Positions 2,478 through 24,559 of a stretch of DNA of 31,112 bases are shown here, piece after piece. Position 1 is the first letter of the stretch. Every line of letters starts with the position of its first letter. The notes beneath the pieces were generated by a model, which did not search any database, was not told the DNA's origin, and was given only the letters and a program-made list of their open reading frames with translations. Source of the DNA: Chiloscyllium plagiosum (lineage: Eukaryota). The translations under genes and the position numbers were made by a program. Where the stretch lies: assembly GCF_004010195.1 (NCBI RefSeq), contig NC_057718.1:83090215-83121326 (forward strand). The letters are read 5' to 3'.

Positions 2478-2759
2478 AGGAGACAGTGAGGTCTGCAGAT
2501 GCTGGAGATCAGAGATGGAAATGTGTTGCTGGAAAAGCGCAGCAGGTCAGGCAGCATCTAGGGAACAGGAGAATCGACGTTTCGGGCATTAGCCCTTCTT
2601 CAGGAAAGAAGTTCCTGAAGTTCTTGCACAAACTTCTTCAGAATGCAACTCTCATCCATTCTTTCCTGAAGAAGGGCTAATGCCCGAAACGTCGATTCTC
2701 CTGTTCCCTAGATGCTGCCTGACCTGCTGCGCTTTTCCAGCAACACATTTCCATCATCG
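2478..2759. mobile_element. Penelope-terminus-derived fold-back mini-element with perfect 97-bp inverted arms
   Basis: Arms 2514-2610 and 2659-2755 are exact reverse complements. 13-bp TSD AGGACCTTATAGA (2465-2477, 2760-2772). Arm resembles the terminus of the Penelope copy at 30420-30505. Confidence 0.85.
2664..2695 (+). ncRNA. Putative minimal type I hammerhead ribozyme (mirror copy on the minus strand at 2574-2605)
   Basis: CTGAAGA (2666-2672), stem II GGGC-TAAT-GCCC, GAAA (2686-2689), palindromic ACGT helix III, GTC cleavage triplet. Helix I is only about 2 bp. Confidence 0.6.
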
Positions 2760-3596
2760 AGGACCTTATAGAGGTTTACAAAATCATGAGGGGCATGGAT
2801 AGGATAACAGACAGAGTCTTTTCCCTGGGGTGGGGAAGTCCAGAATTAGAGGGCATAGGTTTAGGGCGAGAGGGGAAAGATATAAAAGAGACCTAAGGGG
2901 CAACGTTTTCACACAGAGGGTGGTACGTGTATGGAGGAAGTTGCGGAGGCTGGTACAATTGAAACATTTAAAAGGCATTTGGATGGGTATATGAATAGGA
3001 AGGGTTTGGAGGGACATGGGCCGGGTGCTGGTAGGTGAGACTAGATTGGGTTGGGATATCTGGACGAGTTGGACCGAAGGATCTGTTTCCATGCTGTACA
3101 TCTCTATGATTCTATGCCTTAAGTTCCCACGCAGTGCAGTCGGAGGAGGAGCACACGGAGCTGTAAGTATAAACTAATTTTCCTCATGGATGCACAGCCT
3201 TGCTTCTAGGGAGCAGCACACGGAATAACTGAAACCAAACTGAAAAAGTGATGTCAGGAAAACTGTGACCTGATTGGCTGGTAGGAAATCTGTTCCTGAT
3301 TTAAATAAAGTCACTCCAAAACAATCTAAATTAAGTAATTGAGGATTAACTAGCTAATAAATTAACTAACTTAGTACAGATGACTAGGCAAATGTGCTGC
3401 AGCTGTATGATGTGGGAGTTGGCTGATCCCATTGTGAACTGCAGTGACCATATCTGCAGCAAGTGTTGGTTGCTGGAGGCACTCCGGCTCAGAATTGATG
3501 AGCTGAAATCTGAGCTTCAAACACTGCAGCACATCTGGGAAGGAGAGAGTTACCTGGACGCTTTATTTCAGGAGGCTGTCCCACATGAAAGATTAA

Positions 3597-3754
3597 GTAC
3601 AATTGCAACATTTAAGAGGCATTTGAATAGGAAAGGTTTGGAGGGATATGGACTGGGTGCTGGCATATGGGACTAAATTGGGTTGGGATACCTGGTCAGC
3701 ATGGACGGGTTGGACCGAAGGGTCTGTTTCCATGCTGTACATCTCTATGACTAT
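3597..3754 (+). mobile_element. Short CR1 3' end nested in ORF1 of the larger CR1
   Basis: Same 3' UTR and tail as 2950-3116 (GGACCGAAGGGTCTGTTTCCATGCTGTACATCTCTATGA), interrupting ORF1. Confidence 0.85.
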
Positions 3755-3851
3755 CACAAATTTGGTCAGTGGCCAGGGACTGCAGGGTGTGACTGTAACT
3801 TGCGTGGGTAGAGGGATTTAGTCGAGGAACCTAAGCTCTTGACCTTGCCCA

Positions 3852-4531
3852 ACAGGTACTTGCTCCTTGTGTGGATGAGGATCAGAGCTGTAGGGAGGAT
3901 GAACAAACTGACCATGGTACTGTGGTACAGGAGGCCATTCAAGAGGAGGCAGCAAAAAGACAAGTGGTAGTTGTAGGGGATTCTATAATTAGGGAATAGA
4001 TAGTATCCTTTGTAAGCAGGATTGGGAGTCCACATGGTATGTTGTCTACCAGGGTGTGGGACATTGCTGACCGGCTTGAAAGGATATTGGAAAGGGAAGG
4101 GGAGGATCCAGTTATGATCCACGTTGGGACAAACAATACAGGCAAGACTAGGAAAGAGGACTTGTTTAGGGATTATCAGGAACTAGGAATTACAGGTACT
4201 TGCTCCTTGTGTGGATCAGGATCAGAGCTGTAGGGAGGATGAACAAACTGACCATGGTACTGTGGTACAGGAGGCCATTCAAGAGGAGGCAGCAAAAAGA
4301 CAAGTGGTAGTTGTAGGGGATTCTATTATTAGGGAATAGATAGTATCCTTTGTAAGCAGGATTGGGAGTCCACATGGTATGTTGTCTACCAGGGTGTGGG
4401 ACATTGCTGACCGGCTTGAAAGGATATTGGAAAGGGAAGGGGAGGATCCAGTTATGATCCACGTTGGGACAAACAATACAGGCAAGACTAGGAAAGAGGA
4501 CTTGTTTAGGGATTATCAGGAACTAGGAATT
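3852..4531. repeat. 340-bp tandem duplication inside CR1 ORF1
   Basis: 3852-4191 and 4192-4531 differ at two positions that I could find (GGATG/GGATC, TATAA/TATTA). Confidence 0.95.
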
Positions 4532-7329
4532 AAATTAAAAAGAGCAGGTCCTCAAGTGTTATACTGCCCGAGCCACGTCCAAATTGGCATAGAATCATGA
4601 GAATAAGGGAAGTAAACACGTGGCTAAAAGAGTGGTGTGGGAAAGAGAGGCTCCCTCTCATGGGGCACTGGCATCAGTATTGGAACAGGAGAGATCTGTA
4701 CTGGGATGTTTCTACCTAAACTGAACTGGGACCGGTGTTCTAGCGAAAAGAATAAATAGAGTGGCCAACAGGACTTTAAACTAGGAAGTGAGGTGGGGCG
4801 CAGGGGGAAAGGGAAATCTCCATGAAGTATAATGACCAATGGGAAGTAAAGTTGCACGTTAGCATCCATGGGGGTGTTTTCAACTGCATTGAAAAATATG
4901 GAAAAAAAAATGAAAGAAGAACTGATGGGAGGTGATTAAAGTCTCCAGCACACAAATAGGACAGAGTGAGAAGGGTTAGGAATTAAACTTCAAACACACT
5001 GGATAAATGAATAACAATGAAAAGAGGGATAGTCAATGCAGGACTGAAGGTGTTGTAACTGAATATGCGCATTATACGAAATAAGATAGATGAGCTTGTG
5101 ATGCAGATTGAAATTGGCAGGTATGATGTGGTGGACATCACAAAGATACGTCTGCAAGGGGATCAGGTCCGGGAGCTAAACATCTGAGGATATACATCCT
5201 ATCAGAAAGACAGACAGAGGGGGTGGGGTTCTCTTGCTGGTGAAAAATGAAACTAAATCAATAGCAATAAAAGAAACAGGATCAGATGATGTAGAACCTG
5301 TGTGGGTAGAGTTGAGGAATCCTAAAGATAAAAAAAAAGTATGGAAGTTATCTACAGGCGTCCAAACAGTAGTCAGGATTTGAAGCACAACATACACCAG
5401 GAGATAGAAAAGGCGTGTAAGAAAGGCAAAGTTAAAGTGATCATGGGGGATTTAAATATGCAGGTGGACTGGGAAAATCAGCTTGATAGCGAATTGCAAG
5501 AAAAGGAATTTGTGGCATGTCTGAGAGATGGCTTTGGAGCAGCTTGTGGTGGAGTCCACTAGGGAACAGATAATTCTGGATTTAGTGTTGTGCAATGAGA
5601 CAGACTTGATAAGGGAGCTTAAAATGAAGGAACCCTTAGGAGGCAGTGATCATAATACAATAGAATTTACTCTGCAATTTGAGAAGGAGAAGGTGGAATC
5701 AGATGGAATGGTATTACAGCTGAATAAAGGCAACTTCAGAGGCATGAGGGAGGAACTGACCAGAATTGATTGGGAGAGGAGCACAGCAGCAAAGACAGTG
5801 GAACAGCAACGGCAGGAGTTTCTGGGAGTAAGTTGGAAGACACAGTAAAAATTCATCACAAGGAAAAGGAAGCATACTAAAGAGAGGATGAGGCAACCAT
5901 GGGTGACTAGGGAAGTCAGGGATAGCATAAAAGCAAAAGAGAAAGCATATAATGTGGCGAAAGGCAGTGGTAAGTCAGAGGATTGGGGAGCCTGCAAAGA
6001 CCAAAAGACGACAATGAAGAAAGAAATAAAGGAGGGAGAAGATTAAATATGAGGATAAGCTAGCTGGTAGTATTAGGAAAGATTGCAGCAATTTCTTTAG
6101 ATATCTAAAGGACAAAAGAGGGAAAAGAGGACATTGGGGCACTGGAAAATGATGCTGAAGAACTCATAATGGGGAACAAAGAAATAGCTGAGGAACTGAA
6201 TAAGTACCTTGTGGCAGTCTTCATGGTGGAAGACACAAGTAACATCGCAAAACTTCGAGAGAGTCCGGGGAGAGAAATCAGTAGGGTGGTCATCACCGAG
6301 GAGAAGGTGCTAGAAAAGCTGAACGGGTCTGAAAGTGGATAAATCACCTGGACCAGATGGGCTACACCCTAGAGTTCTGAAGGAGATAGCTGAAGAGATA
6401 GTGAAGGCTCTCGTAGTGATCATTCAGGAATCACTGGAGTTAGGGAAGGTCCGAGAGGATTGGAAAATTGCTAATGTAATCTCTCTGTTTCAGAAGGAAG
6501 CCAGGCAAAAGATGGGATGGCCAATTAGCCTGTCCTCAGTCATTGGTAAGATTTTGGAGTCCATTGAGAACAATCAAGGGGAGGTCATGCCTTACAAATC
6601 TGTTAGAATTCTTTGGAGGACATAACAATAGGGTTAGATCAAGGACAGCCAATGGATATATCTATCTGGACTTCAAGAAGGCCTTTGATAAAGTGCCTTA
6701 GGAGACTGCTGAATAAGGGCCCATTGTCAGAGAGGCAAGCTACTAGCATGGATAGAAGCTTGGCTGTCTGGCAGAAAGCAGAGAGTGGGGATAAATGGGT
6801 CCTTCTCAGGATGACAGCTGGTGTTCCACAACGGTCAGTGTTGGGACCACAACCTTTCACTTTATAAATTAATGATCTGGATGAAGCAACTGAGGGCATT
6901 CTGGCTACATTTACAGATGATACAAAGATAGGTGGAGGGGCAAGTAGTATTCAGGTGGTGGGCAGGCCACAGTAATTTTTGGATAGGTTAGTAGTGTGGG
7001 CAAAGAAGTGGCAGATGAAATACAACGTGGGAAAGTGTGAGAAAATGCACTTTGGTAGGAAGAATAGAGTTGTGGACTCATTTTCTAAATGGGGAGAAAA
7101 TTCAGAAGTCTTAAGTGCAAAAGGGAGTTGGGAGTTAGAGTCCAGAATTCTCTTAAGGTAAACTTGCAGGTTGAGTCAGTAGTTAGGAAGGCAAATACAA
7201 TGTTGGCATTCATCTCAAGAGGATTAGAATACGAAAGCAGGGATGTACATCTGAGGTTTAAAAGGCTCTAGTCAGACCACATATTAGCATTGTAAGCAAT
7301 TTTGGACCCCATACCTTAGGAAAGATGTA

Positions 7330-7965
7330 CAGAGGAACCTCGATTATCTGAATATTAATTATCCGAAATTCGGATCATCCAAAGGAGATCTTGAGGTCCG
7401 ACAGAAACATTACATTAAAGACGTGTTTCCAACAGTGATCACGTCTTTTGTTTAGAGTGATTAAACAGAGAAGAAGGGCTTATGCCAGAAACGTCGACTC
7501 TCCTGCTCCCTGAATGCTGCCTGACCTGCTGCGCTTCTCCAGCAACACATTTTCAGCACCATCTCCAAATGACTAACCTCCCACCCTCTTTCTCTCTCTC
7601 TCTCTCCACCCCCACACTTTCCCTGGAGTTCTACAGAGGCATGTACCCTAAAACCCCCTTCTCCAGATAATCTCTCTAACATTGTCCTGTATAGGGCATA
7701 GGTGAAACCTGTCAAAAAGTTGCAGTAAAAAGTTGTGTGTGTGTGGGCACACGAGTGCTATTTGGAGACTTACCCCACAAAGGCAGTTGCAGCAGCAGTC
7801 TTGTTGTTGGTGTACAGTCCGGCTGCCCCGGAGAGGGGGCAGGGAATGGAGACGGAACTGGGGGGTTGAGGGTGGTGTTGGGGGGACTGGGGCAGTGTTC
7901 AACAGGGGCAGTGTTGGACAGGGGCAGTGCTGGACAGGGCTGGGGGCGGTGTTGGATGGGGCAGG
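7330..7965. mobile_element. Tc1/mariner-pogo (Tigger-like) non-autonomous DNA transposon, left end; right boundary uncertain
   Basis: TA followed by CAGAGGAACCTCGATTATC, matching the TIR of the MITE at 21704-21858. It truncates the CR1. No right TIR found. Confidence 0.5.
7469..7567 (+). mobile_element. Single arm of the Penelope-derived hammerhead repeat (degenerate)
   Basis: GAAGAAGGGCTTATGCCAGAAACGTCGACTCTCCTGCT...CAGCAACACATTT is homologous to 2668-2750. The CT of the core is missing. Confidence 0.8.
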
Positions 7966-7968
7966 GGA
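7889..7968. repeat. G-rich minisatellite (about 16-bp unit GGGGCAGTGTTGGACA)
   Basis: Three to four imperfect tandem copies visible. Confidence 0.7.
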
Positions 7969-8029
7969 CAGTGGTTAGCAATTGTTGTCCAAGGCTGGAA
8001 TCAAACCCAGGTCCCTGGCGCTGTGATGA

Positions 8030-9045
8030 TGTTGGCTACTTTCCTGAGGCAGGGGAAGCACAGACAGAGTCAATGTAATGAAGGCTGGTTTTCATGATGG
8101 ACTGGGCTGCGATCAAACTCTGTAATTTCTTGCAGTCTTGGGTACAACAGTTGCCATACCAAGATGTGATGCATCTGGATAGGATACTTTCTATGGAGTA
8201 TCTATAATAAATTGGTAAGTGTCATTGCAGACATGCTGAGTTTCAAAGAGTCATAGTGATATATAGCACAGAAACAGACCCTTCAGTCCAACTCATCCAC
8301 ACTAACCAGATATCCAAAATTAAGCAAGTCTCATTGCTAGCATTCAGCCCATATCCGTCTAAACCCTTCCTATTCATATACCCATCCAGATGATTTTAAA
8401 TGTTGTGATTGTACCAGCCTCCATCACTTCCTCTGGAAGTCCATTACTTACACACACCATCCTCTGTATGAAAAGTTACCCCTTAGGTGCCTTTTAAATC
8501 TTTCCTCCATTGCCTTACAATTATGCCCTCTAGTTTTGGACTCCTCTACCTCTTGATTATTCACCCTATCATACCCCTCATGATTTTATAAACTTTTATA
8601 AGGTCACCCCTCATTGACTACAATGAACAAGGCCTTGGGGTATTCCAACCACCCAAGACTTTTTGTAGCAGTGTATGATTGATCAAGTGCACTCTTCACT
8701 TCCTCATGGGTTAGAATGTAAACTGCTGTCAGGATAACAGAAGGGAACTCCAGCAGCAGGTAGTAGGAGCAGCACTTCGTTGTTAGATATTCTAGGTCCA
8801 GGGAGCAGTAACTCACCAGGGTCACCACATCTGAGCACCAAGAGGTATTGATCAGGAGGCAGACTCCTCCACCCTTTGCCTTGCTTGAGAACACCATGCA
8901 GTCCATGTGATGATTTGAGAAGCCCTCAGGTTGTTAGGCACAGTCAGGAGAAGCAAGAGTGAGCCATGTCTGTAAAACAGAAGTCTCTGAATTCTCTTTG
9001 GTGGGGGAGCCTAGCTTGATATTCATCCAGTTTGTTTTCAATGGC
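8030..9045 (-). mobile_element. Rex1/Babar-like LINE remnants (endonuclease part 8606-9045, 3' part 8030-8245), split by a CR1
   Basis: Minus ORF KGGGVCLLINTSWCSD...LEYL...VILTAVYI...ALFIV resembles the Rex1 APE domain. Confidence 0.7.
8247..8605 (-). mobile_element. CR1 LINE 3' fragment
   Basis: Reverse complement of the 3' region seen at 2760-3116. Confidence 0.88.
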
Positions 9046-9109
9046 TGGGACATTTGCCAGGAGTATGATAGGGAGGGGGAAACTTGAAACCACGTTGTTT
9101 CAGTCTCAC

Positions 9110-9331
9110 CTGTACGTCACCATTTTGACTTGGAGATATAGCACCATTCCTTCACTGTCGCTGGGTCAAAATCCTGGAATTTCCTTCCTATGGACATTGT
9201 GGGTCAACCTATAGCATTTAAATTGCAGCAGTTCAAGAAAGCAGCTCAACACCACCGTCTCTTGGGCAACTATAGACTAGCAATAACTACTGGCCAGCAG
9301 CAATGCCCATATCCCACAAGTGAATAAAAAA
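9110..9331 (+). mobile_element. LINE 3' end (CR1/L2 group), degenerate
   Basis: CCTGGAATTTCCTTCC...TTCAAGAAAGCAGCTCA (WNSLP...FK-like) followed by a 3' UTR ending in AATAAAAA. Confidence 0.5.
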
Positions 9332-9838
9332 TTGTATGTGACATTGGTTTGTTATTGAAAGGTGTACCACAAGTTTTCATTAAATCACTGACAAACTGTG
9401 GCAGCATTTCAGTCTCATTTTCTGTCTTTGATGGGTTGTATGGAAATGTGCTTTCATAGTGACCGAGGCTGTGATAGGTCAAAGTTTCATTTGTGAAGGT
9501 TGAACACATTTGAGGGAATAACAGTTAATTCACTGAAATTATGAAAAATTAAAAGTGCTGGCAGATATTGTCTGTGCCCACTGTTTAATTCAGATTGTTC
9601 AGTGTTATAGTTTTGTTTAAAAAAAGCCACAAGAGGACATTTATTTGCTTAATATTGTTTTCTTAATTTCTGATTTCTTCTAAAGTACATTCATGATGTT
9701 GAACTGCACAAAAGGAGAGGTTTTCTTGTGATTTCCATGCAGCTCAACACGTAAGACTTTTAAATTTGTTCTCACAATAATGGAACTTGTGGATTTTGGC
9801 ACTTGATTAGTCATCTCTGGCCAACATTTTGGAGGAAT

Positions 9839-9892
9839 TCATTTGTCTGCTTTGTTAATCTGGTCAGCTTCAAACAAACAATCCATCCTTTT
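9839..9892 (-). pseudogene. Possible degenerate cystatin exon 3 copy or alternative terminal exon
   Basis: Acceptor TTTCTCTTGTAG, phase-0 reading KRMDCLFE (compare KTFCKFE). A shifted frame gives LTRLTKQT (compare ETSLQNKM). Minus-strand AATAAA at 9640-9645. Confidence 0.35.
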
Positions 9893-10865
9893 CTACAAGA
9901 GAAACATTGGAATTCATACAATGCAAAACAGGTCAAACATTAGATTTAGTCCTTTCAGATTCTTTAAACTTGACTGACTTGGAACAGCACCTTGCAGGTT
10001 TCAACTGGAGCACACCAAGTGAAATAGGGAGGTTTTTCCTTAATCCTACTTAGATTTTTGTAAAAAGTGAAGGGCATCAGGAAGCTTTATAGTTTTGCAT
10101 CATAAACTTGTGCTCCTCAAATGTATTATCTGAGAGAAGTCTAGCCATCCTACCTTTTCCATGTACTGTATAAGGTGTACATCTGGCAAGCAGATACACC
10201 ATTCCTTAAAGCATGTAGGTAAGGGAATAGAAAATGGAAAATTGTACCCTTACCAGAATGAGAGCAGAGACCAGCATGGAGACAGCAAGTACCAGAGTGG
10301 AGCTGAGGCCTTCAGGTTTGGAGCCCAGCATAGTCTACAGACTTGGCCCAGACTGTCTGGAGGCTCGGTGCTGGCATGGACTTGGTGAAAAGACCAAACG
10401 TAGAGTACTTTTTAACAAGAAAACTTATTATTCTTATGCTGAACTTTTCATGAGTCAAGTCTGTAACACATACTTAAGCATTCTATACTTAAGTACCCAG
10501 TATCTAAAGTGACACCAAAGCAGCAACATTAGACTTCAACTCATTCGAGTTCACATAACAATAAAGGCTAATTCAATTCAGGTCCTGCAGACTTGTCTAC
10601 CCTAATGCTTCAAACATCTTTAGATTCAATGGGCACACAGACAAAAACATCTGCCAGAGTAGACAAAATCAGAAGCTTAGTGTGGGAGATTGCTCAGAAC
10701 ACTACCATCTGGAATTTCTCTCCCTCCTACAGCCAGAATCTGAGGGGCAGATTCAGGTTCAAAATCACTTCATCAGCCAGTACCCTCACATTGGGGGAAG
10801 ATCCAGCCACCCTGCATTAGTTGCGGTGTCATTCAGTCAGATGGCCTAACACAGGAAGGTCTCAC

Positions 10866-10990
10866 ATCAGTTCTGAAGAGTGACTCAAAACATTAACTCT
10901 TCTTTCTCCTCATAGATGCTGCTTAGTTTTGCCAGAATTTTCTGCTTTTGGTTTCAGATTGCCAGCATCTGCAATTCTTTGTTTTATATT
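10866..10990 (+). mobile_element. Old Penelope-terminus-like repeat with degenerate hammerhead motif
   Basis: AGTT-CTGAAGA-GTGACTC-AAAAC-ATT-AACT (helix I AGTT/AACT kept, GAAA mutated), followed by GATGCTGC...CCAGCATCTGCA. Confidence 0.55.
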
Positions 10991-11080
10991 AATATAGGAA
11001 GGCTCTGGTTGCAAATTGGAAGTGTGTCTTTGGGAGTTGTAGAGGCTGTATCCCAAATCAGAAAACAGGTAGACTGAAAT

Positions 11081-11205
11081 CAGTGCTTAAAAATGTGTTG
11101 CTGGAAAAGCGCAGCAGGTCAGGCAGTATCAAAGGAACAGGAGAATCAACATTTCAGGCATAAGCCCTTCTTCTCTAGCATCTGCAGTCCTCACTTTCTC
11201 CTTCC
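11081..11205. mobile_element. Fold-back mini-element copy lacking most of the second arm
   Basis: One arm homologous to 2520-2600 joined to the inverted tail AGCATCTGCAGTCCTCACT. TSD AGACTGAAAT (11071-11080, 11206-11215). Confidence 0.8.
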
Positions 11206-11699
11206 AGACTGAAATGAGTGGCAAATTAAAAGGGAGAGGGGCCTAGAGATGGTTCAGCCAGGCAGAAGCTAAAAAGAAATTAAAGGCAGCATTCATCAGA
11301 AATGCTGCACTACCTGTCCCTCATGTGAAAGTTTAGGTCAAGCAATACATTTGACTACAAATTCAGACAGTTGTCCACACACAACTTTACAGGAAAAGTG
11401 AAATTTTAAGCAAATTTCATCTTAGTACAAATAGCAACAGAACCACTACAATGACAATGGGATTTGCATGCAAGGTGAGGCATTAAGTTTTCTTACAAAT
11501 CTTTGAGAAAATGAGGAAGGATAAAATAGAACACAATCAGTAGGATTCACTGTGGGTCAAGTTCTTCCAAGCCTTTTGGAAGCCGATTCTGAGATGGGGC
11601 TTGTAAAGGTGAATTCTAAAAAAGGTATGGGACCACAGTACCAAAAAAAGGTCATTTTTGAACTGACTAGGCTGTCAAAAACCTACTGACCTATGACGT

Positions 11700-12605
11700 A
11701 TCCTAGTTGTACAGCACAAACAGACCCTTCTGTCCAACTCACCTATACCAACCAGATCTTCCAAACTAATCTAGTCCCACTTGCCAATATCTAGCCATAT
11801 CCCTCCGAACCCTTCATGCTCAGATCCCCATCCAGATGCCTTTTAAATATTTAATTGTACTAGCCTCCACTACTTCTGGCAGTTCCTTCCATACATGCAC
11901 CAACCTCAAAAAAATTTGCCCCTCATGCCCCTTTTAAATCTTTCCCCTCTAACCTGTGGGTGGCACGGTGGCACAGTGGTTAGCACTGCTGCCTCACAGC
12001 GCCTGAGACCCGGGTTCAATTCCCGCCTCAGGCGACTGACTGTGTGGAGTTTGCACGTTCTCCCCGTGTCTGCGTGGGTTTCCTCCGGGTGCTCCGGTTT
12101 CCTCCCACAGTCCAAAAGATGTGCAGGGTCAGGTGAATTGGCCATGCTAAATTGCCCGTAGTGTTAGGTAAGGGGTAAATGTAGGGGTATGGGTGGGTTT
12201 CGCTTCGGCGGGTCGGTGTGGACTTGTTGGGCCGAAGGGCCTGTTTCCACACTGTAATCTAATCTAATCTAAAAATCTAATCTAAAAACCTTAAATATAT
12301 GCCTTCTACTTTTGCCTCTCCTACCCTGGGGAAAAATACCTTGGCAATTCAACCAATCCATACCCCTCAATTTTAATAAACCTCCAAAAAAGTCATCCCT
12401 CAGCTTCTGACACTCCGAGGGGAAAAAGCAGCCCTGGGTTTTACAGGCTCTCTCCGTAGCTCAAACCCACCAACATCCTTGCAAGTCTTCTCTATGCCCT
12501 TTCAAATTTAACATCTTTCCTACAACAGGAGGCCAGAATTGAATGCAGTATTCCAAAATGACCTAACCAATGCCTCATACAGCTGCAACATGACATCCCA
12601 ACTCC
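11700..12605 (-). mobile_element. CR1 LINE 3' fragment interrupted by a SINE
   Basis: Reverse-complement CR1 3' UTR and RT end on both sides of the SINE. Confidence 0.85.
11956..12286 (+). mobile_element. Young tRNA-derived V-SINE (HE1-like elasmobranch SINE)
   Basis: A box TGGCACAGTGG, B box GGTTCAATTCC, V domain TGTGTGGAGTTTGCACGTTCTCCCCGTGTCTGCGTGGGTTTCCTCCGGG, CR1-like tail, (TCTAA)n, TSD AACCT (11951-11955, 12287-12291), CpGs intact. Confidence 0.93.
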
Positions 12606-13835: not shown

Positions 13836-13841
13836 TTTATT
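13836..13841 (-). terminator. Candidate polyadenylation signal of the cystatin gene
   Basis: AATAAA on the minus strand about 170 nt after the stop codon, with ATTAAA next to it at 13845-13850. Confidence 0.5.
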
Positions 13842-14012
13842 AGCTTTAATGGAAGCTACAGTAATTTTGGTATAGTGAGGCATTTAACATTCATGTTCAT
13901 GATTTAATTAAAGGCTAGAGCTGCTACTAGGATGCAGAAAAGTGGGAGTTTCCAGTGAATAAATTAAGCATTTAGTAACCAAATAAAATTAATTTGCTGC
14001 AACGCAGAAAAT

Positions 14013-14102
14013 TCAGTTGTTTGATGGTTTGCACATCTTGTTTTGCAGAGACGTTTCTTCAGCCCAAGCGATTGAAAGAACCTCAAATTTGCAAAAGGTT
14101 TT
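14013..14102 (-). CDS. cst3: Type 2 cystatin (cystatin C-like), exon 3
   Basis: Acceptor CTTTTCAG, phase 0, KTFCKFEVLSIAWAEETSLQNKMCKPSNN-stop. Second disulfide pair and the Trp of the L2 loop. Confidence 0.9.
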   Translation of the reverse strand, partial: KTFCKFEVLSIAWAEETSLQNKMCKPSNN

Positions 14103-15589: not shown

Positions 15590-15785
15590 ACTGCAGTATG
15601 GAGAGCATTGCCAGGAAGAAGAGTAGCATTCTGGGTAACAGTTAGAGGTGGGAAGGGGAGGAAGCAGGCAGTGCAGGGATCCCCTGTGGTTGTTCCCCTC
15701 AACAAGAGCTATACCGCTTTGGATACTGGGGGGGGGGGGGGGCAGGGGTAGGGGGAGGGCCTAGCAGGGGGAAGCAGGGTAGTGT
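15590..15785 (+). mobile_element. CR1 ORF1 fragment
   Basis: WVTVRGGKGRKQAVQGSPVVVPLNKSYTALDT matches the CR1 ORF1 linker motif (WVTV...L.N.Y..L). Confidence 0.7.
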
Positions 15786-16767
15786 TTCACACAATTAGGC
15801 ACTCAAATGTAAATCGCATTCAAGAATGTCAGTGGTAAATGTTGAACAGGACAGGTGGGCATGCACAGCTTTTGCTTTTGCAAAATTACAATTCCTACCG
15901 ATTCCTTAATAAGTGTAATGTTTGAAAAGAAGCATGACAATAGAAACATATTAAATTACATTTTCCATTTATTGGATCTTTTTTTTCTATTTTCAGCCTC
16001 TTATTAAGAAACAATTCTGTTCTGATGTAAGGGCAATAAATTTGCTTCACCATGTGAATATTGCAGAATAGCAATTATTTTGGCGGTTTATGAAAGGCAT
16101 CTGGAAAATGTTTATGTCTATGAATATGAGCATAGGATCTTGAATCAAAGTATTCATTTATTTTCGTGTTCAACAATATTCCCAAGGTAAATTATTGAGT
16201 TGTGACATAAAAATGATATTTGAGAATGCTGTGTTTTTAGGAGAGGGGCCTTTCAGATGTTTATGAAACCTTTTGAAGTTTGGTTTGGAATAAATATTTC
16301 ATGTCATCACTGACATGTGCATTTTGCTGGTTTGGCTGATTTTAACATTTTTGAATAATGGTTATACACAGTGTACACGTTTCATGTGGAGCCATTTTGG
16401 TATGCTACAGTGCTGTTAGTTTTATTTGATGCTCCTCATAGCCATTAAAATTGCAGCATAGTTTATTGTTGTATTATACTTGACTTTCTGGAATATGTTT
16501 TAGGATGTTCTCTGCTGTTTTTATTTTTCTTGCTGTACATGAATTTTTGCATTCTTTTTACTTTTCTATTCATACCTGAAATAAGGCCTTTGAGAGTTTG
16601 GTTCCAGTGGCCATGTTGCAATGACTTAATCTGTCTGATTTCATTTCCAGAATGATTAAATTGATGTCTAGCAGTAATAGCAAAGAAAGAAGTATCAATT
16701 GAGGTTAAGTACATACAGGTGGAGTCATTCAGTGGTTTCTTGAGTGCATATAAAGTGATACCTGGGC

Positions 16768-16880
16768 TATGGTGTCACAATGGTAGTGTCCCTAACACTG
16801 GGCTAGGAGATCCAGTTCAAGTCCCATTTGCTCCATAAGGGGTGTCCTAAAATCTTGAACAGATTGATTAGAAAATATTT
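16768..16880 (+). mobile_element. Degenerate short tRNA-derived SINE
   Basis: A-box-like TGGTGTCACAATGG and B-box-like GTTCAAGTCC at tRNA-like spacing. Confidence 0.45.
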
Positions 16881-17756
16881 ATGAAGTGATACTGTAACAG
16901 GTGTGGAATCAGGAAATATAATACCTTTAATGTTTTACGCTGTGACTGAATTTGTTCTAAACAAAAGATTGGTTAAGGTTTCTTCAGCATCTGGCTAACA
17001 GAAGTATAACAACGTAACTTCTGGATATTCCGAGGAAATTTATAACCTATAAACATTTTCAAAATGTAGGTGCTGTTGTGTTCTCAAAGGATTGATCATT
17101 GGCGCCCTCCTATTTGTCATCTATATGTTTGACCTTGGTAATGTCATCCAAAATCATTTCCACATGTATGCTGGCAACACCTAGCTTTATTTCACTACCA
17201 CTTATTTTACCAACACTTTGGTTGTTCCTATATTGTCAAACTGCTTATCTGACAGGCAACATTAGTTTAGTTTAGATTAGATTAGATTGAGAAGAAATTT
17301 CCTCCAACTAAATCATGGAAACACTGATGCCATTGTCAAAAGATGTTCCCTAGTCATTGGCTCTCTTTCTTGCAACTATCAGAGTCTGTCTGACCCAGGC
17401 AATTCTCAACCTGGTTTAATATTTGATTCGAAGATGAGCTTCTGACCACACATCTGTATCATCTCTCAAAGTCCATATCCACCCCCATACCGTTGCCCAA
17501 TATCTTCTCAGAATTGGCCCAGCAGTGGAAAATGGTGCGTAAAGAGTGACATCTTCAACATTGGTAGGATCTGGTGTGCACAGCGGCAAGGTGGTGGAGG
17601 AAGCATGGCGGCACAGGCATTGTTGATGGTGAGCTGGCTCAGGATTGATGGACTCTCTCAGCTATATATTAGTTCTTATTCTTAAAATTATTTAAAATAG
17701 TGCCAGATTGTGACGACAGTGGAAATACTGTAAAATACACATGACAATAAAATCAA

Positions 17757-17808
17757 CCATCTCTCCCTCCTTCCCTCCCTCCCTCCCTCCATCAATCCAT
17801 CCATCCAA
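17757..17808. repeat. (CCCT)n/(CCAT)n microsatellite
   Basis: Directly visible. Confidence 0.85.
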
Positions 17809-17996
17809 CTCCTCATTTAAGTTTCTGTTGCCTTACATTTGACTACTGCACCACATTCCTGGCTGGCTCCCAAGTTAAGCATTAAAATATTCCAAGCCTT
17901 GTGGTCCATCTTCTAACTCTCACCAATTTCCATTTAATTAGACCACCCACGTGCTCCTACATGGTTAGCTCCTTGTTAACTAACACTTGATTTTCA

Positions 17997-18198
17997 TGAT
18001 TTGGAGGTGCCGCTGTTGGACTGGGGTGTACAAAGTTAAAAATCTCGCAACACCAGGTGATAGTCCAACAGGTTTATTAGCAGCACTGGCTTTCAGAGAG
18101 CTGCTCCTTCACAACCATCTGATGAAGGAGCAGCGCTCAGAAAGCTAGTGCTTCTAAATAAACCTGTTGGACAATAACCTGGTGTCGTGTGATTTTTA
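17997..18198. mobile_element. Second family of fold-back mini-element with hammerhead motif
   Basis: Imperfect inverted arms (about 18033-18111 and 18123-18202). 12-bp TSD ACTTGATTTTCA (17985-17996, 18199-18210). Confidence 0.85.
18116..18150 (+). ncRNA. Putative minimal type I hammerhead ribozyme
   Basis: CAT-CTGATGA-AG-GAGC-AGC-GCTC-A-GAAA-GCTA-GTG: helix I CAT/GTG, stem II GAGC/GCTC, palindromic AGCT helix III, CTA triplet. Confidence 0.65.
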
Positions 18199-18614
18199 AC
18201 TTGATTTTCAAATTCTCATCCTTTATTTTCATGCTATTATCCTTCCCTATTTTGGTAATCTTGTCCAACCCTTAGAGATATCTCCAATTTTGGCCTCTTG
18301 AGCATCCTCATATGTAAGCAAAATACTATTTTAAACACATCTCTTTGATCAATTGCCCCTAATATTTCCTTAGGTAACCCAAATTAAATTTTATTTGATA
18401 TTGCTCCATCAAGTTCTTTGGAACAGTTTATTACTTTGAATGCAAGTTGTTCCAGTTGTTGTTGTAGCAAGTGCAATTACTTTTGCATAGCACGTTCCTA
18501 CAAATAAGAAATGACCAAGTTACCTGGTTTGAGGTATTAGCTGAGACACAAATGTTAGCGAAGACATTGTGAAAATTTCCCCCATCAAACAGTGGAGTGG
18601 CACCTTTTAAACAT

Positions 18615-18795
18615 CAGCTCTGGCTTAGTTGGTGGCACTTTTGCCTGAGTCAGAAGTTTGTGGGTTCTAGTCCCATTACTGGATTTGAGCACTAAATCAA
18701 AACTGATATTCCAGTGCAGTTCTGCCGTGCTTGCTATACTGTTGGAGGTGCTGTCTTTTGGATGAGGTGCTAAACTGAGGCATTTCCTGCTATCT
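18615..18795 (+). mobile_element. DeuSINE-like SINE 5' half, cut by a CR1 insertion
   Basis: tRNA-like head (TGGCTTAGTTGG...GGTTCTAGTCC) and Deu-domain-like TGTTGGAGGTGCTGTCTTTTGGATGAGGTGCTAAACTGAGG. Confidence 0.65.
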
Positions 18796-19497
18796 TGAAT
18801 GCGGAATACAGGGTTAATGGTAGGGTTCTTAGTCAGGTGGAGGAACAGAGGGATCTTGGGGTCTATGTTCATAGATCTTTGAAAGTTGCTACTCAGGTGG
18901 ATAGAGCTTGTAAGAAGGCCTATGGTGTTTTAGCGTTCATTAGCAGCGGGATTGAATTCAAGAGTCGTGAAGTGATGTTGCAACTGTACAGGACTTTGTT
19001 TAGGCCACATTTGGAGTACTGTGTGCAGTTCTGGTCGCCTCACTTTAGGAAAGGTGTGGAAGCTTTGGAGAGGGTGCAGAGAAGATTTACCAGGATTTTG
19101 CCTGGAATGGAGAATAGGTCGTACGAGGATAGGTTGAGAGTGCTAGGACTTTTCTCGTTGGAACGGCGAAGGATGAGGGGTGACTTGATAGAGGTTTATA
19201 AGATGATCAGAGGAATAGATAGAGTAGACAGTCAGAAACTTTTTCCCCGGGTACAACAGAGTTTTACAAGGGGACATAAATTTAAGGTGAAGGGTGGAAG
19301 GTATAGTGGAGGATGTCAGGCGTAGGTTCTTTACCCAGAGAGTGGTGGGGTCATGGAATGCGCTGCCTGTGGGAGTGGCAGAGTCAGAATCATTGGTGAC
19401 CTTTAAGCAGCAATTGGATAGGTGCTTAAGCTAGGACAAATGTTCGGCACAACATCGTGGGCCAAAGGGCCTGTTAGGTGCTGTATTGTTCTATTCT
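18796..19497 (+). mobile_element. Young 5'-truncated CR1 LINE with open RT C-terminal frame
   Basis: 176-aa open frame with RDLGV, RPHLEYCVQFWSP, LERVQRRFT, LGLFSLERRRMRGDLIEVYK. TGTTCTA-like tail. Confidence 0.95.
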
Positions 19498-20557
19498 GAG
19501 GATGCTGAGCTGTTTCAGCAGTGGAACAAACTATGTTCCTGAAGCATTTTGATACTACTTCATGAACAGGCTTTATACTTGCCAAGAAAAATTACTAAAT
19601 TTGTGTAAAGACCAGATAAGCATAGGACACTAAACCTGCATGGCTGTGGCTGCTTAATCCCACTGTTTTATGTGAAAATGCAGCAATTCAAAGTGTTAAT
19701 ATCCCACACAAGTACTGCACTTACATGTCAACTTTCCCAGGGTTCCAAGACGGACTAGCAACTTTAGTCACTTGCCACTTTCTACATCAAGAGATTCAGG
19801 ACAGTGATATTTATCATACACATCAGTAGTGTTTTACTAAAAGGTGGTCAGAGTTTAAAATAATTGTACCATATAGTAGGGATTACAGGTAGTGAGATCA
19901 AGCCAGAAGCAATTACATCTCCAGAATAATTAGAAGTTCCCATGAAAATTTTGCAATTTTACCTTCTTTCCTCCTTGTTAGCTCCCATCATTTCAGACAA
20001 TTAAATTTAGACTCTTCTGCCCTGCACTCAATAATCATGCTCTCATAAGTCATAAATGTACCAGATAAGTTCAAGTCAGAGCTAGCTTCAAAAATTTGAA
20101 GATTGCAATTTGACCTCAAGTAATGCTGGAGACTATTTTCATTGAGGGCACACAAATTCCCTTCTCGCCCCTTCCACATCCCTCCCCAGGATAATTCCTG
20201 CTCTTATAAAAAGAGTGTACACCTTACACTGTATATAAAGGAAATAAGTGGTAAGGCTCCTTCCATCTAAACACTTGGAGAAGTTTGCAGGATTTGTGCA
20301 AAATACAGATATTTTGTTTTGCTTCCGTTAGTGATCCAAAATCAACCAAGATTCTGCTCAGAGACCATTCATTCAGTTTAAAAGAATCCAAATAAAACAA
20401 GCATTTGACTTAAATGGAATTCAGATTGCATTGGAAATGGTATAAAGTTTGGACTGTTTGAAATGGATACAATTAATTCTAGTTATTAATAGAGACTACT
20501 AATTAGATCCCAAAATCCACAAGTGTTCTATTATCATAAATGAACATAAAGCCTTAC

Positions 20558-20665
20558 ATGTGATGTTTCACTGAAATTGCAAGTTTCCAAATCATGAACC
20601 TGTCCTTGTTTGCATTGGGTTCTCCCCAATTCAACTTCAAATGTGTACTTCACCCCAGCAACAAT
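20558..20665 (-). CDS. cst3: Type 2 cystatin (cystatin C-like), exon 2
   Basis: AG...GT bounded, 108 nt, phase 0/0, IVAGVKYTFEVELGRTQCKQGQVHDLETCNFSETSH. Completes QxVxG (QIVAG) across the junction and holds the first disulfide pair. Confidence 0.95.
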
Positions 20666-20814
20666 CTGAAAAGGAAGAAAGCAAAATGTTTAAGAAAATA
20701 ATCAAGCCCAGTTTAGAAACAAAAATCCATGGAAGCATCAACTAAAATATAAGATTCATTTTATGCAACAACAAAAAAAATCCACATGACAATTTCTGCT
20801 CAAAATTACCAGCA

Positions 20815-21004
20815 AGAGGAAATGGTGGAGGCTGCTACAATTACAATATTTAAAAGACATCTAGATAGGTATATGAATAGAAATGGTTTATAGGAATATG
20901 GGCCAGTGATGGCAAATGGGACTAGATTTATTTAGAATCTGGACAGCCTTGACAAGTTGGGCCAAAGGGCCTGTTTCCATGTTGTATATCTGATTCTATG
21001 ACTA
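20815..21004 (+). mobile_element. CR1 3' end
   Basis: Homologous to 2935-3116. Confidence 0.85.
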
Positions 21005-21703
21005 ATCTGAATTAAGCAGTGGGCAAAGAAGAATTAGGAAAACTTTTAAAGTTTGAATTAGACAACTAACCTTTCAGCTACATTTAACCTTCACAAATTT
21101 GGGTTCCCATGGCCTCCGTTACCACAATTAATGCTGCTTTCAGGTCATTAAGATAAGTGAAACTAAAGGCTTCCCTATACACACAATTTGCAAACTGTGA
21201 TTGAGTGAAAGTTAATGGTGCAACTTGTAGCACAAAATCAAAGATTCAATTGTGATTGCTAGGTTACCATTAATTATTAAGTTCACGTTACCGTAGTCTC
21301 TTGCGTTCCCAATGCCTCACCTGTTCCCTCTAATCAGATTGTGGGCTCCACTCTAGAAAACGTGAATGTAAAGGAAGCTAATTTTCAGGGCAGCACTGAA
21401 GTCCTGCATTGTGGATAAGATAATAAATCTAAATGCTGTCTCAATTGGCCATAAAAACATCTATAAATAGTTATCCAATTAGTCCATGCCCTGGCCATTA
21501 TGTAACTGCATAGCCAACATCTGTAAAATAGATAGTTTACTCAGCTTATTATTTGCCATATTTTAATAATTACAACCACTTGAGCACCTTTGAAGTGGAA
21601 AGCACTTTGGGTCAAACAAGTTAGTTATTTCCTACCAATACTTACGGCGGGATAAATAGGAACACTAGGGTCATGGACTAAAGTATGACAATAAAATCAT
21701 CTC

Positions 21704-21858
21704 CAGAGGAACCTTGATTATCCAAATGACATGGACAGGGAGTATTTCATTCGGTTAGTCGAATGCTAGATAAGTTAGCCACACAGCAGGACTTGGTGAT
21801 CTTGTTTGGATAATCTGGAATTTGGTTAATCGAATGCCAGATAATCAAGATTCCTCTG
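21704..21858. mobile_element. 155-bp MITE with Tigger/pogo-like TIRs
   Basis: CAGAGGAACCTTGATTATC ... GATAATCAAGATTCCTCTG followed by TA. The left TA is mutated. Confidence 0.8.
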
Positions 21859-22939
21859 TACATAGAACTAGTTACTATCTGGTCATAATTTTGCCACTTG
21901 CAATAGGGTTTCATGACAAATAAATATTAGCCTCTGTACCAGGGAGAGTGAATTAGTGAATCGGTTCTATTATGCAACTAAGCCTGGGTAAAATACCTCA
22001 ACAGTAATTTGACATCTCCAAGCATGCAGCACTTCCAGAACTGCACTGGGGTCAGTATGGAGTTGCATCCACAGCCTCTGAAGTGACACTTGAGCCCACA
22101 AACCCCTGAGGACACAGATTTAAGGTAACTGGCAAGAAAGAGGAGTGTGATTCAAAACTTCTTTTTTTCTTAAAATGATTTTTGAATGCACAGTTTGAGA
22201 ATTTGGTGAGCAGATATCTAAACTTTGAAAGAATTTTGGACATGTACTTGGAGGGGGAGCTAAATGGCAGGGCTATGGGACAAAACAGAATAGAACAATT
22301 AGAACTGAGACAAATGGGCTGCATGACCTCTTCCAATGCAAACCACTTTCATGTCTTCAGAACTGACAACAGAAGGAACAAATATTAATACAAACAGAAG
22401 GGAAGGAGGACAAGATAACAATATGGGCAAATTGTTGCAACAGATCTATCAAGTTATGAACAAAAGGCATTGAGGACTTAGATTAGAGGCAAAAGACTTG
22501 CCAATCACTAGTTTCTATTGACAGGACATGGGGAATCCAGTTTGAAGGTGAAACTAAGTAGCAGGATCACCAGCTCTAGAAAAATAAAGACCATCGGGGT
22601 GTACAATACCATCTTGCTATATTGAAATTTCCACCTCACCAACATTGACCCTTTTAATTTGTCATTCCATCCGCCTCCTCAGGTGGGTGGAAGACTTCAT
22701 TCTAGTATTCAAAAAAAAAAGTCAATTACAAGGAAACAGATACTTGATATTACTCAGTGCTATAGTTACTTATTCAAACAAACTTGAACACAATTTGGTT
22801 CCATCTAAAACCATCGAACCTGGAAGGGAATTCCACGTTCAACTCTATGGTTTTTCAGTTCTGATGTCTACTGTTGCTCTGTTAGGAGTCTATATTGTAT
22901 CTATTTCCCATCATTGCTCATCATCCAACTACTGGTCAG

Positions 22940-23594
22940 ACCAAGCACAGGAGTTGGGAGGTCACATTGGGCTGTACAGGACATTGGTTAGGCCATTTTT
23001 GGCATATTGTGTGCCATTTTGTCTCCCTCCTATCAGGAGGACGTTGTGAAATTTGAGGAGGTTTGGGAGAGAGTTAAGGGCTTGAGAATTTGAGCTATAG
23101 GAGAGGTTGAATAGGCAGGGTTTGTTTTCCCTAGAGTGCCAGAGCCTGAAGGGTGACCTTAGAGGTTTTAAAATCATGAGGGGCGTGGATAGGGTAAACA
23201 TACGTGGTCTTTTCCCTGGGGAGGTAAGAGTCCAGAACTAAAAGGCATAGGTTTAAGGTGAGGGGAAAGGTTTAAAAAGAGGCATTTTCTTCTTGCAGGG
23301 GGTGGAGGGTGTATGGAATGAGCTGCCAGAGAGTGGGGAGACTGGTAAAATTACATTTAAAATGGCATCTGGATGGGTATAGGAATGGGAAGAGTTTAAA
23401 ATAATACTGAGTGCTGCACACTGCTCCCAGTCCGCTTCACAACAAGACTGAGTGCTAAACAATTGTCCCAGTTTAGAGGGATGTAGGCCAAGTGCTGACA
23501 AATGGGACTAGATTAGTTTATGATATCTAGTTGACATGGACAAGTTTAACAGAAGGGTCTGTTTCTGAGCTGTACGTCACTATGACTTTATGAC
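22940..23594 (+). mobile_element. CR1 3' fragment with a 71-bp insertion
   Basis: LYRTLVRPFLAYCVPF motif, CR1 3' UTR and tail. Confidence 0.88.
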
Positions 23595-23962
23595 CCTTCC
23601 TCAGAACTTGGAAAAAGGCCAGTTTTTTCAGCTTTTGCTTAAACTAGGTAACAGGGGAATTTAAGGTGAAAGGGACTAAATGTGCAAATTTGACAGCACT
23701 TTTCCAGCTTGACTTTGCACACAATCTCTACACTCTCTCTGGACACAAGCATTCCGTTATGAACTTAACATCTCAATCACACAGGTCCCATCCTAAACTG
23801 TCACTCATGATCTTTACCCCACCCTGCACCTGGTATAAGATAGTAGGAACCCTTCTCCAGTTTACTGCTGCAAAAAAAAAATCTTCCAGTGTTTAATTAT
23901 ATCAGATGTTCCAGGTCTGTTCAATAATTATTTTTTCAAATATGGCTGCCCATCCTCCTGGA

Positions 23963-24132
23963 GGGGAAGCAAGGACCACAGATGCTGGAAAAGTACAGCA
24001 GGTCAGGCAGCATCCATGGAGCAGGAAAAAAAAATCAACATTTCAGGCATAAGGCCTTCATCAAGGCTTATGCCTGAAATGTCAGTTTTCCTGCTCCGTG
24101 GATGCTGTCTGACCTGATGTGCTTTTCCTGCT
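23963..24132. mobile_element. Older fold-back mini-element (same family as 2478-2759) in cystatin intron 1
   Basis: Imperfect inverted arms around a centre near 24055-24064. TSD CATCCT(C/T)CTGGA (23951-23962, 24133-24144). Confidence 0.85.
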
Positions 24133-24559
24133 CATCCTTCTGGATGATCCCAGAAAGAAAGTTCAACCACAGCGACAAGCAACCAAATAATCATCCCTCC
24201 CCCTCATTTTGTAAATTCAGTGGGGAGAAAAATCCTGTTTCGTTAACAGGACAATTGGCGGTAGGAGTCATATGGTGAAACTTCCAGAAGGAAGTTTAGC
24301 TGGAGCTAGCAATTCCTCTACCAAGAGATTTCTTTTTAATTGGATGTTGCTATTGATCAATTTCTTTTGCCGCAGTGCACAAACTACTTCAAAGATACTT
24401 TGTTGATAGTGAAGCTAATGATTTGGTCCCTACCACAAACCCTGTTCACTGACTAGCATTTCAAAAATGAGGAATGACAGATCATTCACAACCTCTGCTA
24501 CATGAGCCAGCAAGCTTCACACAAACCTTTCTTCAGTTTATTCATACTGTTTTTTTTCT

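What the first reader, a model, noticed from the sequence alone, without database searches (positions are those of the whole stretch)
2478..24144. Non-autonomous palindromic mini-elements carrying hammerhead ribozyme motifs, two unrelated families
Seen: four TSD-flanked inserts of 125-282 bp (2478-2759, 11081-11205, 17997-18198, 23963-24132). Three share one asymmetric design of a unique leader, an arm and an inverted arm, turning around at the hammerhead CTGANGA core; 11081-11205 retains only one arm and the leader. The 18-kb element has different sequence but the same architecture and hammerhead topology (AGCT instead of ACGT in helix III). The arms of the first family resemble the termini of Penelope elements in this window (25562, 30416). 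Established: Penelope-like elements carry minimal type I hammerheads with palindromic helix III thought to act as dimers, and often form inverted terminal structures. Inference: these are either retrozyme-like parasites of Penelope or ultra-truncated insertions in which the ribozyme site fixes the turning point. The perfect copy encodes a hammerhead motif on each strand.
Basis: partly seen in the sequence, partly recalled or inferred. Interest (0 to 1): 0.75.

Follow-up and report, generated by a model that had tools for sequence, protein, structure and literature searches.

The report
Two-ended Penelope stubs in shark DNA
These short mirror-image inserts are real, but they are cut-short ends of a known kind of jumping gene (Penelope-like) in shark-like DNA, likely built afresh at each landing site by copying the front of the element's RNA onto both cut DNA ends, so they are probably not a separate ribozyme parasite, though their ends may record where that RNA starts.

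Summary
The four inserts, their target-site duplications and the hammerhead motifs are real. They are not retrozymes. The 'leader' matches the known Penelope 'tail', the stretch between two reverse-transcription start sites. Three of the four share their termini with two ORF-bearing Penelope copies in the window. Every centre is different. The centre of the perfect copy is a patchwork of single-copy DNA 210-270 bp upstream, and it is not seen as a repeat in two related species, so it was likely made in place. The 11-kb insert has two non-overlapping, oppositely oriented arms, which simple fold-back cannot give. Eight of 9 short arms end within -9..+6 of the ribozyme's first core base, and none at the cleavage bond (+27). 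Five of 8 lose part of the core. Contigs of related sharks show hundreds of ends at -3/-4. Best model: priming from both target ends, run-off at the RNA's 5' end (inferred), then microhomology joining. The layout is published (inverted pLTR, one tail, TSD); my searches did not find the end clustering in print. The scan reported the same reading many times on other shark DNA. Interest is modest.

The parts
2478..2759 (.). E1: two-armed Penelope pLTR stub, family 1, inserted in a LINE-like repeat
2465..2477 (+). E1 left TSD, 13 bp (right copy 2760-2772)
2479..2518 (-).
   Evidence: contig ends pile before 2478 (691 and 673) and before 2519 (413 and 425); PMC11167929
2514..2606 (-). E1 left arm with a complete minimal type I hammerhead (C3 at 2603; predicted cut 2576|2575); homology to family ends at -3
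2607..2662 (.). E1 centre: templated patchwork. 2616-2631 = 2255-2270 (+, 16 nt exact); 2631-2660 = reverse complement of 2206-2235 (30 nt exact); 2606-2614 = 2228-2236 (9 nt, within chance range)
   Evidence: depth 0 over 2636-2660 in both relatives
2203..2270 (.). Single-copy local DNA that served as template for the E1 centre
   Evidence: single-copy depth and present in both relatives
2663..2755 (+). E1 right arm, tail-less, complete minimal hammerhead (C3 at 2666; predicted cut after 2693)
11081..11205 (.). E2: long tail-less arm (11091-11173, minus, starts at core G5) joined head to head to a tail-only arm (about 11172-11202, plus); TSD 10 bp
17997..18198 (.). E3: two-armed stub of family 2 (tail about 18003-18035; left arm ends at +4; right arm has full core from 18119 but a G-A mismatch at the base of helix II); TSD 12 bp
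23963..24132 (.). E4: older two-armed stub of family 1 (arms about 80% alike; ends at +1 and +6; tail with internal deletion); TSD 12 bp, 1 mismatch
7470..7560 (+).
25563..27634 (-). P1: decayed 5'-truncated Penelope-like element (RT, Cys-linker, GIY-YIG pieces) ending in a family 1 terminus; a SINE-like repeat (about 25626-25922) splits its hammerhead
30418..31112 (-). P2: Penelope-like element 3' end with GIY-YIG ORF (30716-31111), 3' UTR and complete minimal hammerhead (C3 at 30502)

Best explanation
The inserts are short end-stubs of Penelope-like retrotransposons (shown for three of four, inferred for the 18-kb one), likely built at each landing site when both cut target strands primed separate DNA copies of the front of the element's RNA, which likely ran off near the RNA's start and were then likely joined head to head. 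Steps: (1) The GIY-YIG endonuclease makes a staggered cut of 10-13 bp (TSDs shown; enzyme inferred). (2) Each target end starts reverse transcription at one of two fixed internal sites about 35-40 nt apart, which gives one arm with the tail and one without (the two termini are shown in relatives; use of both strands and two sites is shown in vitro for the anole element and inferred here). (3) The copies pass through the uncut hammerhead (shown by sequence) and usually stop at or just inside its 5' edge (shown), most likely because the template RNA begins there (inferred). If both copies start on one RNA, the tail copy can stall before the second start site, giving the 11-kb form (inferred). 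(4) The two cDNA ends are joined by end-joining, with 1-2 shared bases or with filler copied from nearby DNA (filler shown in E1; repair route inferred). The products lack an ORF and upstream sequence and are likely dead ends. The ribozyme motif is a passenger inherited from the parent element.
For: Family 1 arms match the termini of P1 and P2, which carry RT and GIY-YIG sequence (top protein hit 80% identical, Chiloscyllium punctatum). Two fixed outer termini appear in two related species, followed by unrelated AT-rich DNA (agreement 0.34-0.38): before 2478, 691 and 673 contigs; before 2519, 413 and 425. The anole Poseidon protein cuts and extends both strands, starts at two internal sites whose interval is the tail, and uses uncut RNA (PMC11167929). 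E2's two arms share no sequence and each begins at one of the two termini. Similar opposite-strand joints (2513/2598, 2516/2598, 2522/2601, 2548/2603; one contig each) occur in relatives. E1's centre holds 30-nt and 16-nt exact copies of single-copy DNA 210-270 bp upstream (expected by chance 1e-13 and 2e-5), and has depth 0 over 2636-2660 against about 1e7 on the arm. Inner ends: 8 of 9 short arms lie at -9..+6 and 0 of 9 at the cut (+27). Contig ends pile at 30505/30506 (261/812 and 269/792; median loose length 255; agreement 0.32-0.33), and no other listed 'behind' row exceeds 37 in X11. They pile at 2606 (476 and 455). In P2, position -4 is the A of an initiator-like match (the consensus YYANWYY is recalled; 1.3% of window positions match).
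Against: No genome of this organism was held and no listed run held half of the stretch's words (best 0.38), so all genome-wide counts come from relatives. The pile at -3/-4 coincides with the point where subfamily 3' UTRs diverge (P1 against P2). The loose-letter consensus starts with 5-13 UTR-like letters, and in raw RNA reads it is G/A-rich with agreement 0.48. So an unknown share of the pile is a homology edge, not a true end. No call shows the RNA's 5' end. P1 has its initiator-like match at -6 and E3 has none. Five of 8 arms end inside the core, so trimming after run-off has to be assumed. E1's arms are 100% identical, and E3 and E4 have 1-2-base overlaps at the centre; both fit fold-back equally well. 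No ORF-bearing parent of family 2 was found. The empty site of E1 was not shown in relatives, because their contigs stop at 2338 and 2390.
Confidence: 0.7

Rival explanations
1. Fold-back: one cDNA is made, its 3' end folds back near the ribozyme core and copies itself, and the endonuclease trims one arm to remove the tail.
For: E1's arms are 100% identical over 97 nt. E3 and E4 turn with 1-2 shared bases and no filler. Self-priming was proposed from palindromes at inverted junctions (PMC3846280, passage), and endonuclease resolution was proposed for the tail (PMC8557442, passage).
Against: E2's arms do not overlap, so neither can be a copy of the other. E1's centre is foreign DNA in both orientations. 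The tail interval equals two measured RT start sites, used on both strands, in vitro (PMC11167929).
Confidence: 0.13
2. They are Penelope stubs, but the clustering at the core is caused by something other than the RNA start: the enzyme stalls on the folded or protein-bound ribozyme, or the apparent pile is mostly a subfamily homology edge.
For: Subfamily UTRs diverge at exactly -4. The raw-read loose consensus is UTR-like. Five of 8 window arms end inside the core, not at one base.
Against: A stall would be expected on the 3' side of a structure (established reasoning), yet the arms cross helices III and II. The contig piles have the low agreement of the true terminus at 2478 (0.34), not that of homology edges (0.52-0.84), and long AT-rich loose ends. 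The window's arms visibly end in filler, flank or the other arm.
Confidence: 0.1
3. Retrozyme-like or SINE-like mini-elements that replicate as palindromic units with Penelope's enzyme.
For: Short, non-coding, TSD-flanked, abundant, and carrying type I hammerheads. Animal retrozymes are argued to derive from pLTRs (10.64898/2026.07.22.740005).
Against: No head-to-tail repeat at any insert. Four inserts have four different centres, and E1's is locus-specific. Only 2 of 8 core-reaching arms are complete. In E1 the antisense arm is transcribed first on either strand, and opening the ribozyme costs about 43 kcal/mol (-217.7 against -175.0).
Confidence: 0.04
4. Ribozyme self-cleavage makes the RNA end at which the arms turn.
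For: The turn is near the ribozyme. One contig has an opposite-strand joint at 2575, the predicted cut. Earlier scan notes (unchecked) report U6 fusions at the cut.
Against: 0 of 9 window arms end at the cut; 8 contain it intact and stop 21-36 nt beyond. No pile is listed at 2575 (bound only: under 241 in X1 and under 371 in X11). In the anole element, ribozyme mutants insert normally (PMC11167929).
Confidence: 0.03

Closest known systems
EN+ Penelope-like element insertions with inverted pLTR, one-sided 30-40-bp tail and TSD (Pen2a_Av, PMC3846280; general scheme PMC8557442 Fig. 2 legend; passages)
   Same: Head-to-head inverted 5'-truncated copy, tail on one end only, TSD of about 10 bp, host DNA captured between pLTRs, microhomology joins.
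   Different: Here both halves are only about 30-130 nt with no ORF between them, and the inner ends cluster at the 5' edge of the hammerhead. I did not see that stated in the passages read.
Poseidon element of Anolis carolinensis, PAc (PMC11167929, parts 1-3 of 4 read)
   Same: Hammerhead about 85-125 nt upstream of two RT start sites, tail between them, both strands extended, uncut RNA used as template.
   Different: In vitro system of the Penelope/Poseidon clade. The shark elements have a Cys-rich RT-EN linker (Neptune-like). The paper does not treat inverted stubs or where cDNAs stop.
Minimal type I hammerheads of metazoan pLTRs (PMC4209133, parts 1-2 of 4 read)
   Same: Core with an extra base between positions 9 and 10.1, G10.1-C11.1, palindromic 15.2-16.2, weak helix I; most motifs are solo, some in opposite-strand pairs 100-700 bp apart.
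   Different: Helix II is 4 bp in family 1. Sharks are not named in the parts read. No activity was tested here.
Non-LTR retrozymes (PMC7229834, passages; 10.64898/2026.07.22.740005, parts 1-2 of 5 and passages)
   Same: Short, non-coding, type I hammerhead, linked to Penelope.
   Different: Retrozymes are head-to-tail arrays with two or more complete ribozymes in one orientation. These inserts are inverted, with at most one ribozyme per strand, mostly truncated.
LINE-1 twin priming and templated insertions (10.1101/2024.08.27.596794, passages)
   Same: Both target nicks prime cDNA, the ends are joined by microcomplementarity, and local DNA is sometimes copied into the joint.
   Different: In L1 the second primer lands at random internal sites, and templates lie typically within 15 bp of the site. 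Here both starts are fixed, the arms can overlap, and the template lies 210-270 bp away.

Membership tests
EN+ Penelope-like element (family 1) | Terminus linked to an RT plus C-terminal GIY-YIG ORF | tested here: met
   P1 and P2 share the terminus; GIY-YIG Pfam E 8.5e-5; RT-EN proteins align over 26099-27634 and 30728-31111
EN+ Penelope-like element (family 1) | Minimal type I hammerhead in the pLTR | tested here: met
   3 descriptor hits against a mean of 0.03
EN+ Penelope-like element (family 1) | Optional 30-40-bp tail on one end | tested here: met
   Termini at 2478 and 2514-2519
EN+ Penelope-like element (family 1) | Inverted 5'-truncated copy and TSD | tested here: met
EN+ Penelope-like element (family 2, 18-kb insert) | Terminus linked to an RT-EN ORF | tested here: inconclusive
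EN+ Penelope-like element (family 2, 18-kb insert) | Hammerhead core, one-sided tail, inverted arm, TSD | tested here: met
Neptune clade | [quoted passage not shown] | tested here: met
   C-x4-C-x2-C-x-H in P1 and in P0001
Neptune clade | Placement on an RT tree | not tested
   No tree built
Non-LTR retrozyme | Head-to-tail tandem units | tested here: not met
   No array at any of the inserts; arms are inverted
Non-LTR retrozyme | Two or more complete ribozymes in the same orientation | tested here: not met
   At most one per strand; 5 of 8 arms truncated in the core
Non-LTR retrozyme | Unit-length linear or circular RNA | not testable with these tools
   Only poly(A) single-cell reads and contigs of relatives were available
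Active hammerhead ribozyme | Self-cleavage as monomer, dimer or with protein | not testable with these tools
   Folding only: helix II P 0.95-0.99, helix I closing pair P 0.002-0.04; the dimer fold was inconclusive

The most novel reading that the evidence does not exclude
Penelope-like elements normally insert by two-ended priming on one uncut, unit-length RNA. One target strand uses the tail start site and the other the tail-less site, both run off at a transcription start a few bases before the hammerhead, and repair joins them. Full-length transposition would then be the exception that needs a read-through tandem RNA. The many shark stubs would be a genomic map of that start site and of the order of steps.
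Probability: 0.45. Interest if true: 0.55.

Novelty: new member of a known kind. Interest (0 to 1): 0.3.

Why it matters
How Penelope-like elements form their inverted ends and one-sided tail is still described as undefined (PMC8557442, passage), and the in vitro work stops before second-strand synthesis (PMC11167929). These stubs do not define a new element. They do give in vivo products that make the question testable: two fixed starts, a clustered stop, non-overlapping arms in one copy, and a locally templated joint in another. They also caution against counting opposite-strand hammerhead pairs as retrozymes.

Tried and rejected
Rfam gave 8 weak rows, none a hammerhead; the miRNA rows are just the hairpins and lie below their gathering scores, and the U6 row (E 0.61) was set aside as chance. 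Exact-pattern scans found nothing: family 1 in metagenome and viral contigs, family 2 in metagenome and prokaryote genome contigs. No RNA holder was listed. Laying poly(A) single-cell reads of a relative showed no pile of read starts or ends (table 6); such a library cannot show 5' ends, so I did not use it as evidence. The empty site of E1 was not reached in relatives. Depth figures were not used as copy numbers. No TSD was found for E5. Co-folding two E1 sense arms did not give a clear ribozyme dimer. A splice acceptor at -4, by analogy with the D. virilis intron that ends at helix I (PMC4209133), was rejected because the bases before -4 are not AG in P1 or P2. An earlier scan note's 'extra G from the cap' was looked at only in passing: 4 of the 7 listed joints at 2604-2606 have a letter that could be such a G (table 5c, 43 more rows not shown), which is too few to use. 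The binomial for clustering (5 of 7 insertions, p 3e-4 or 1e-5) uses a window chosen after the fact and a crude null, so it is only indicative. Look-ups of earlier findings by sequence, by place 'near' and by one word set gave nothing.
Full report
Setting. The window looks like shark DNA. The ORF at 30716-31111 (minus) carries a GIY-YIG domain, and its best database relative is an 80% identical Chiloscyllium punctatum protein; many of the other listed hits carry RT or Penelope-type Pfam domains (223 hits, 120 listed). Four such proteins align to 26099-27634 and 30728-31111, which defines two Penelope-like remnants, P1 and P2. A Cys-rich linker in P1 points to the Neptune clade; no tree was built. 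The labels LINE-like and SINE-like for other repeats are my recall and come from no call.

Observation. All four inserts are real and TSD-flanked (13, 10 and 12 bp exact; 12 bp with one mismatch; null: 0.17% of 3000 pairs reach 10, none reach 12). A minimal-hammerhead descriptor finds exactly three complete motifs: both arms of E1 and P2 (mean 0.03 in 100 resampled windows). A fifth, single-armed copy lies at 7470-7560. The 18-kb insert resembles family 1 only around the core, with AGCT for ACGT in helix III.

The leader is the Penelope tail. Read on the element's sense strand, each arm is core, helix II, GAAA, cleavage triplet and about 60 nt more; the 'leader' continues that for another 35-40 nt. 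In contigs of both relatives, ends pile before 2478 (691, 673) and before 2519 (413, 425), followed by unrelated AT-rich DNA (agreement 0.34-0.38). The pile before 2522 (587, 641) is partly an alignment break (6 rows a run shown, 721 not shown). The anole Poseidon protein starts reverse transcription at two internal sites whose interval is the tail, cuts and extends both target strands, and does not need ribozyme cleavage (PMC11167929, parts 1-3 of 4). Inverted 5'-truncated copies with a tail on one side and a TSD are the described layout of these elements (PMC8557442 and PMC3846280, passages).

The inserts were made in place. The four centres all differ. E1's centre contains a 30-nt exact reverse copy of 2206-2235 and a 16-nt exact forward copy of 2255-2270, plus a 9-nt match to 2228-2236 that is within chance range (chance expectation 1e-13 and 2e-5 for the first two). 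The template region itself contains CTGAAGAAG, the same letters as the start of E1's core, which offers a microhomology for the jump (inference). That region is single-copy and present in both relatives, while 2636-2660 has depth 0 against about 1e7 on the arm (a hole in contigs is not proof). E2 consists of a tail-only arm of about 30 nt and a tail-less arm of 83 nt in opposite orientation, with no shared sequence. Fold-back cannot give that, and two priming events can. Of 15 joints shown (19 not shown), 9 are opposite-strand. Two of these join the arm to the LINE-like part, and six pair an end at 2598-2610 with one at 2513, 2516, 2522, 2548 or 2575, or join 2508 to 2548 (one contig each). 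Against this, E1's identical arms and the filler-free centres of E3 and E4 fit fold-back as well.

Where the arms stop. With C3 as 0, the inner ends are: E1 -3 and -3 (four more shared letters are best explained by the filler), E2 +2, E5 +2, E4 +1 and +6, E3 +4 and -9 or nearer. E2's short arm stops within the tail; P1 and P2 run on for about 1.7 kb and over 0.6 kb. So 8 of 9 short arms end within -9..+6, none ends at the scissile bond (+27), and 5 of 8 cut into the core. On P2, contig ends pile at 30505/30506 (-3/-4): 261/812 in X1, 269/792 in X11 and 48/121 in X16, with median loose length 255 in the two DNA runs and agreement 0.32-0.33. The only other 'behind' row listed in X11 has 37, and the smallest X1 row has 68 (24 rows shown, 2062 not, and X1's counts were partly cut). 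On E1 they pile at 2606 (476, 455). The caveat is real: subfamily UTRs diverge at the same point, the loose consensus begins with UTR-like letters, and raw RNA reads of organism A give a G/A-rich consensus with agreement 0.48. I cannot give the share of true ends. The low agreement and AT-richness match the true terminus at 2478, not homology edges (0.52-0.84), which suggests that most long contigs do end there. No pile is listed at the cut, but the bound is loose (under 241 and under 371).

Why there. An enzyme moving 3' to 5' on RNA should stall before a structure, not after it, and a cleaved RNA would end at +28. Run-off at the RNA's own 5' end explains a stop at -3/-4, with later trimming giving +1 to +6. 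In P2, -4 is the A of an initiator-like match (consensus recalled; 1.3% background; P1's match is at -6 and E3 has none). In D. virilis the start site lies 46 bp before an intron (PMC2377424, passages) whose end meets helix I (PMC4209133), so a start close upstream of the ribozyme has a precedent. This step is inferred: no RNA 5' end was observed. I noted the idea, before reading earlier scan notes that say the same; those notes are not independent support.

The ribozyme. The motif matches the published minimal type of metazoan pLTRs (PMC4209133, parts 1-2 of 4). Helix II folds (P 0.95-0.99) and helix I barely does (P 0.002-0.04). E1 does encode one motif per strand, but on either strand the antisense arm comes first. 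The full RNA folds as one hairpin (-217.7 kcal/mol), and forcing the ribozyme open costs about 43. Retrozymes are defined by head-to-tail units with two or more complete ribozymes (PMC7229834, passages; 10.64898/2026.07.22.740005); neither feature is met. Activity was not tested.

Novelty. The layout, the motif, the tail and host-DNA capture between pLTRs are published. Templated joints are known from LINE-1 twin priming (10.1101/2024.08.27.596794, passages). Eight searches of the held library did not show a paper on ORF-less two-armed stubs with ends clustered at the hammerhead's 5' edge, or on shark Penelope hammerheads (PMC6155905 names sharks only for the shape). The library lacks most subscription papers and Repbase reports. 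I read no supplements; those of PMC4209133 and PMC11167929 (Fig. S2, genomic ends) may bear on this. Within the scan the reading is common: 131 findings in at least 14 genomes hold the search words, including locally templated centres. Verdict: real, a new member of a known kind, with a useful but unproven mechanistic hint. Interest 0.3.

Noticed in passing
window 7470-7560: Fifth family 1 stub, single arm, starting at core G5, no TSD found
   Followed up: partly
window 25626-25922: SINE-like repeat inserted into helix II of P1's hammerhead; 80% complementary to 11958-12085
   Followed up: partly
window 3852-4532: 340-bp tandem duplication, 99% identical: a recent duplication or an assembly artefact
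   Followed up: no
window 17997-18002 and 18199-18202: E3 begins with six letters repeated from its own TSD, and its tail-less arm shares four letters with the right TSD: possible slippage and microhomology at the two priming events
   Followed up: no
window 23963-23990: E4's tail joins the arm directly at a short direct repeat, losing about 24 nt; P2's end also looks internally deleted
   Followed up: no
window 27161-27235: 38-bp tandem duplication inside P1
   Followed up: no
run X1, joint 2606 to 2478: A contig joins an arm's inner end to the tail tip with 8 letters between, possibly a head-to-tail stub dimer in a relative; orientation not shown
   Followed up: no
window 23994-24122: E4 scores E 2e-5 against Rfam mir-1791, far below its gathering score; older stubs form long imperfect hairpins that could be mistaken for, or feed, small-RNA precursors
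   Followed up: no
window 12477-12531: Weak U6 match (E 0.61), set aside as chance; not next to a Penelope arm
   Followed up: partly
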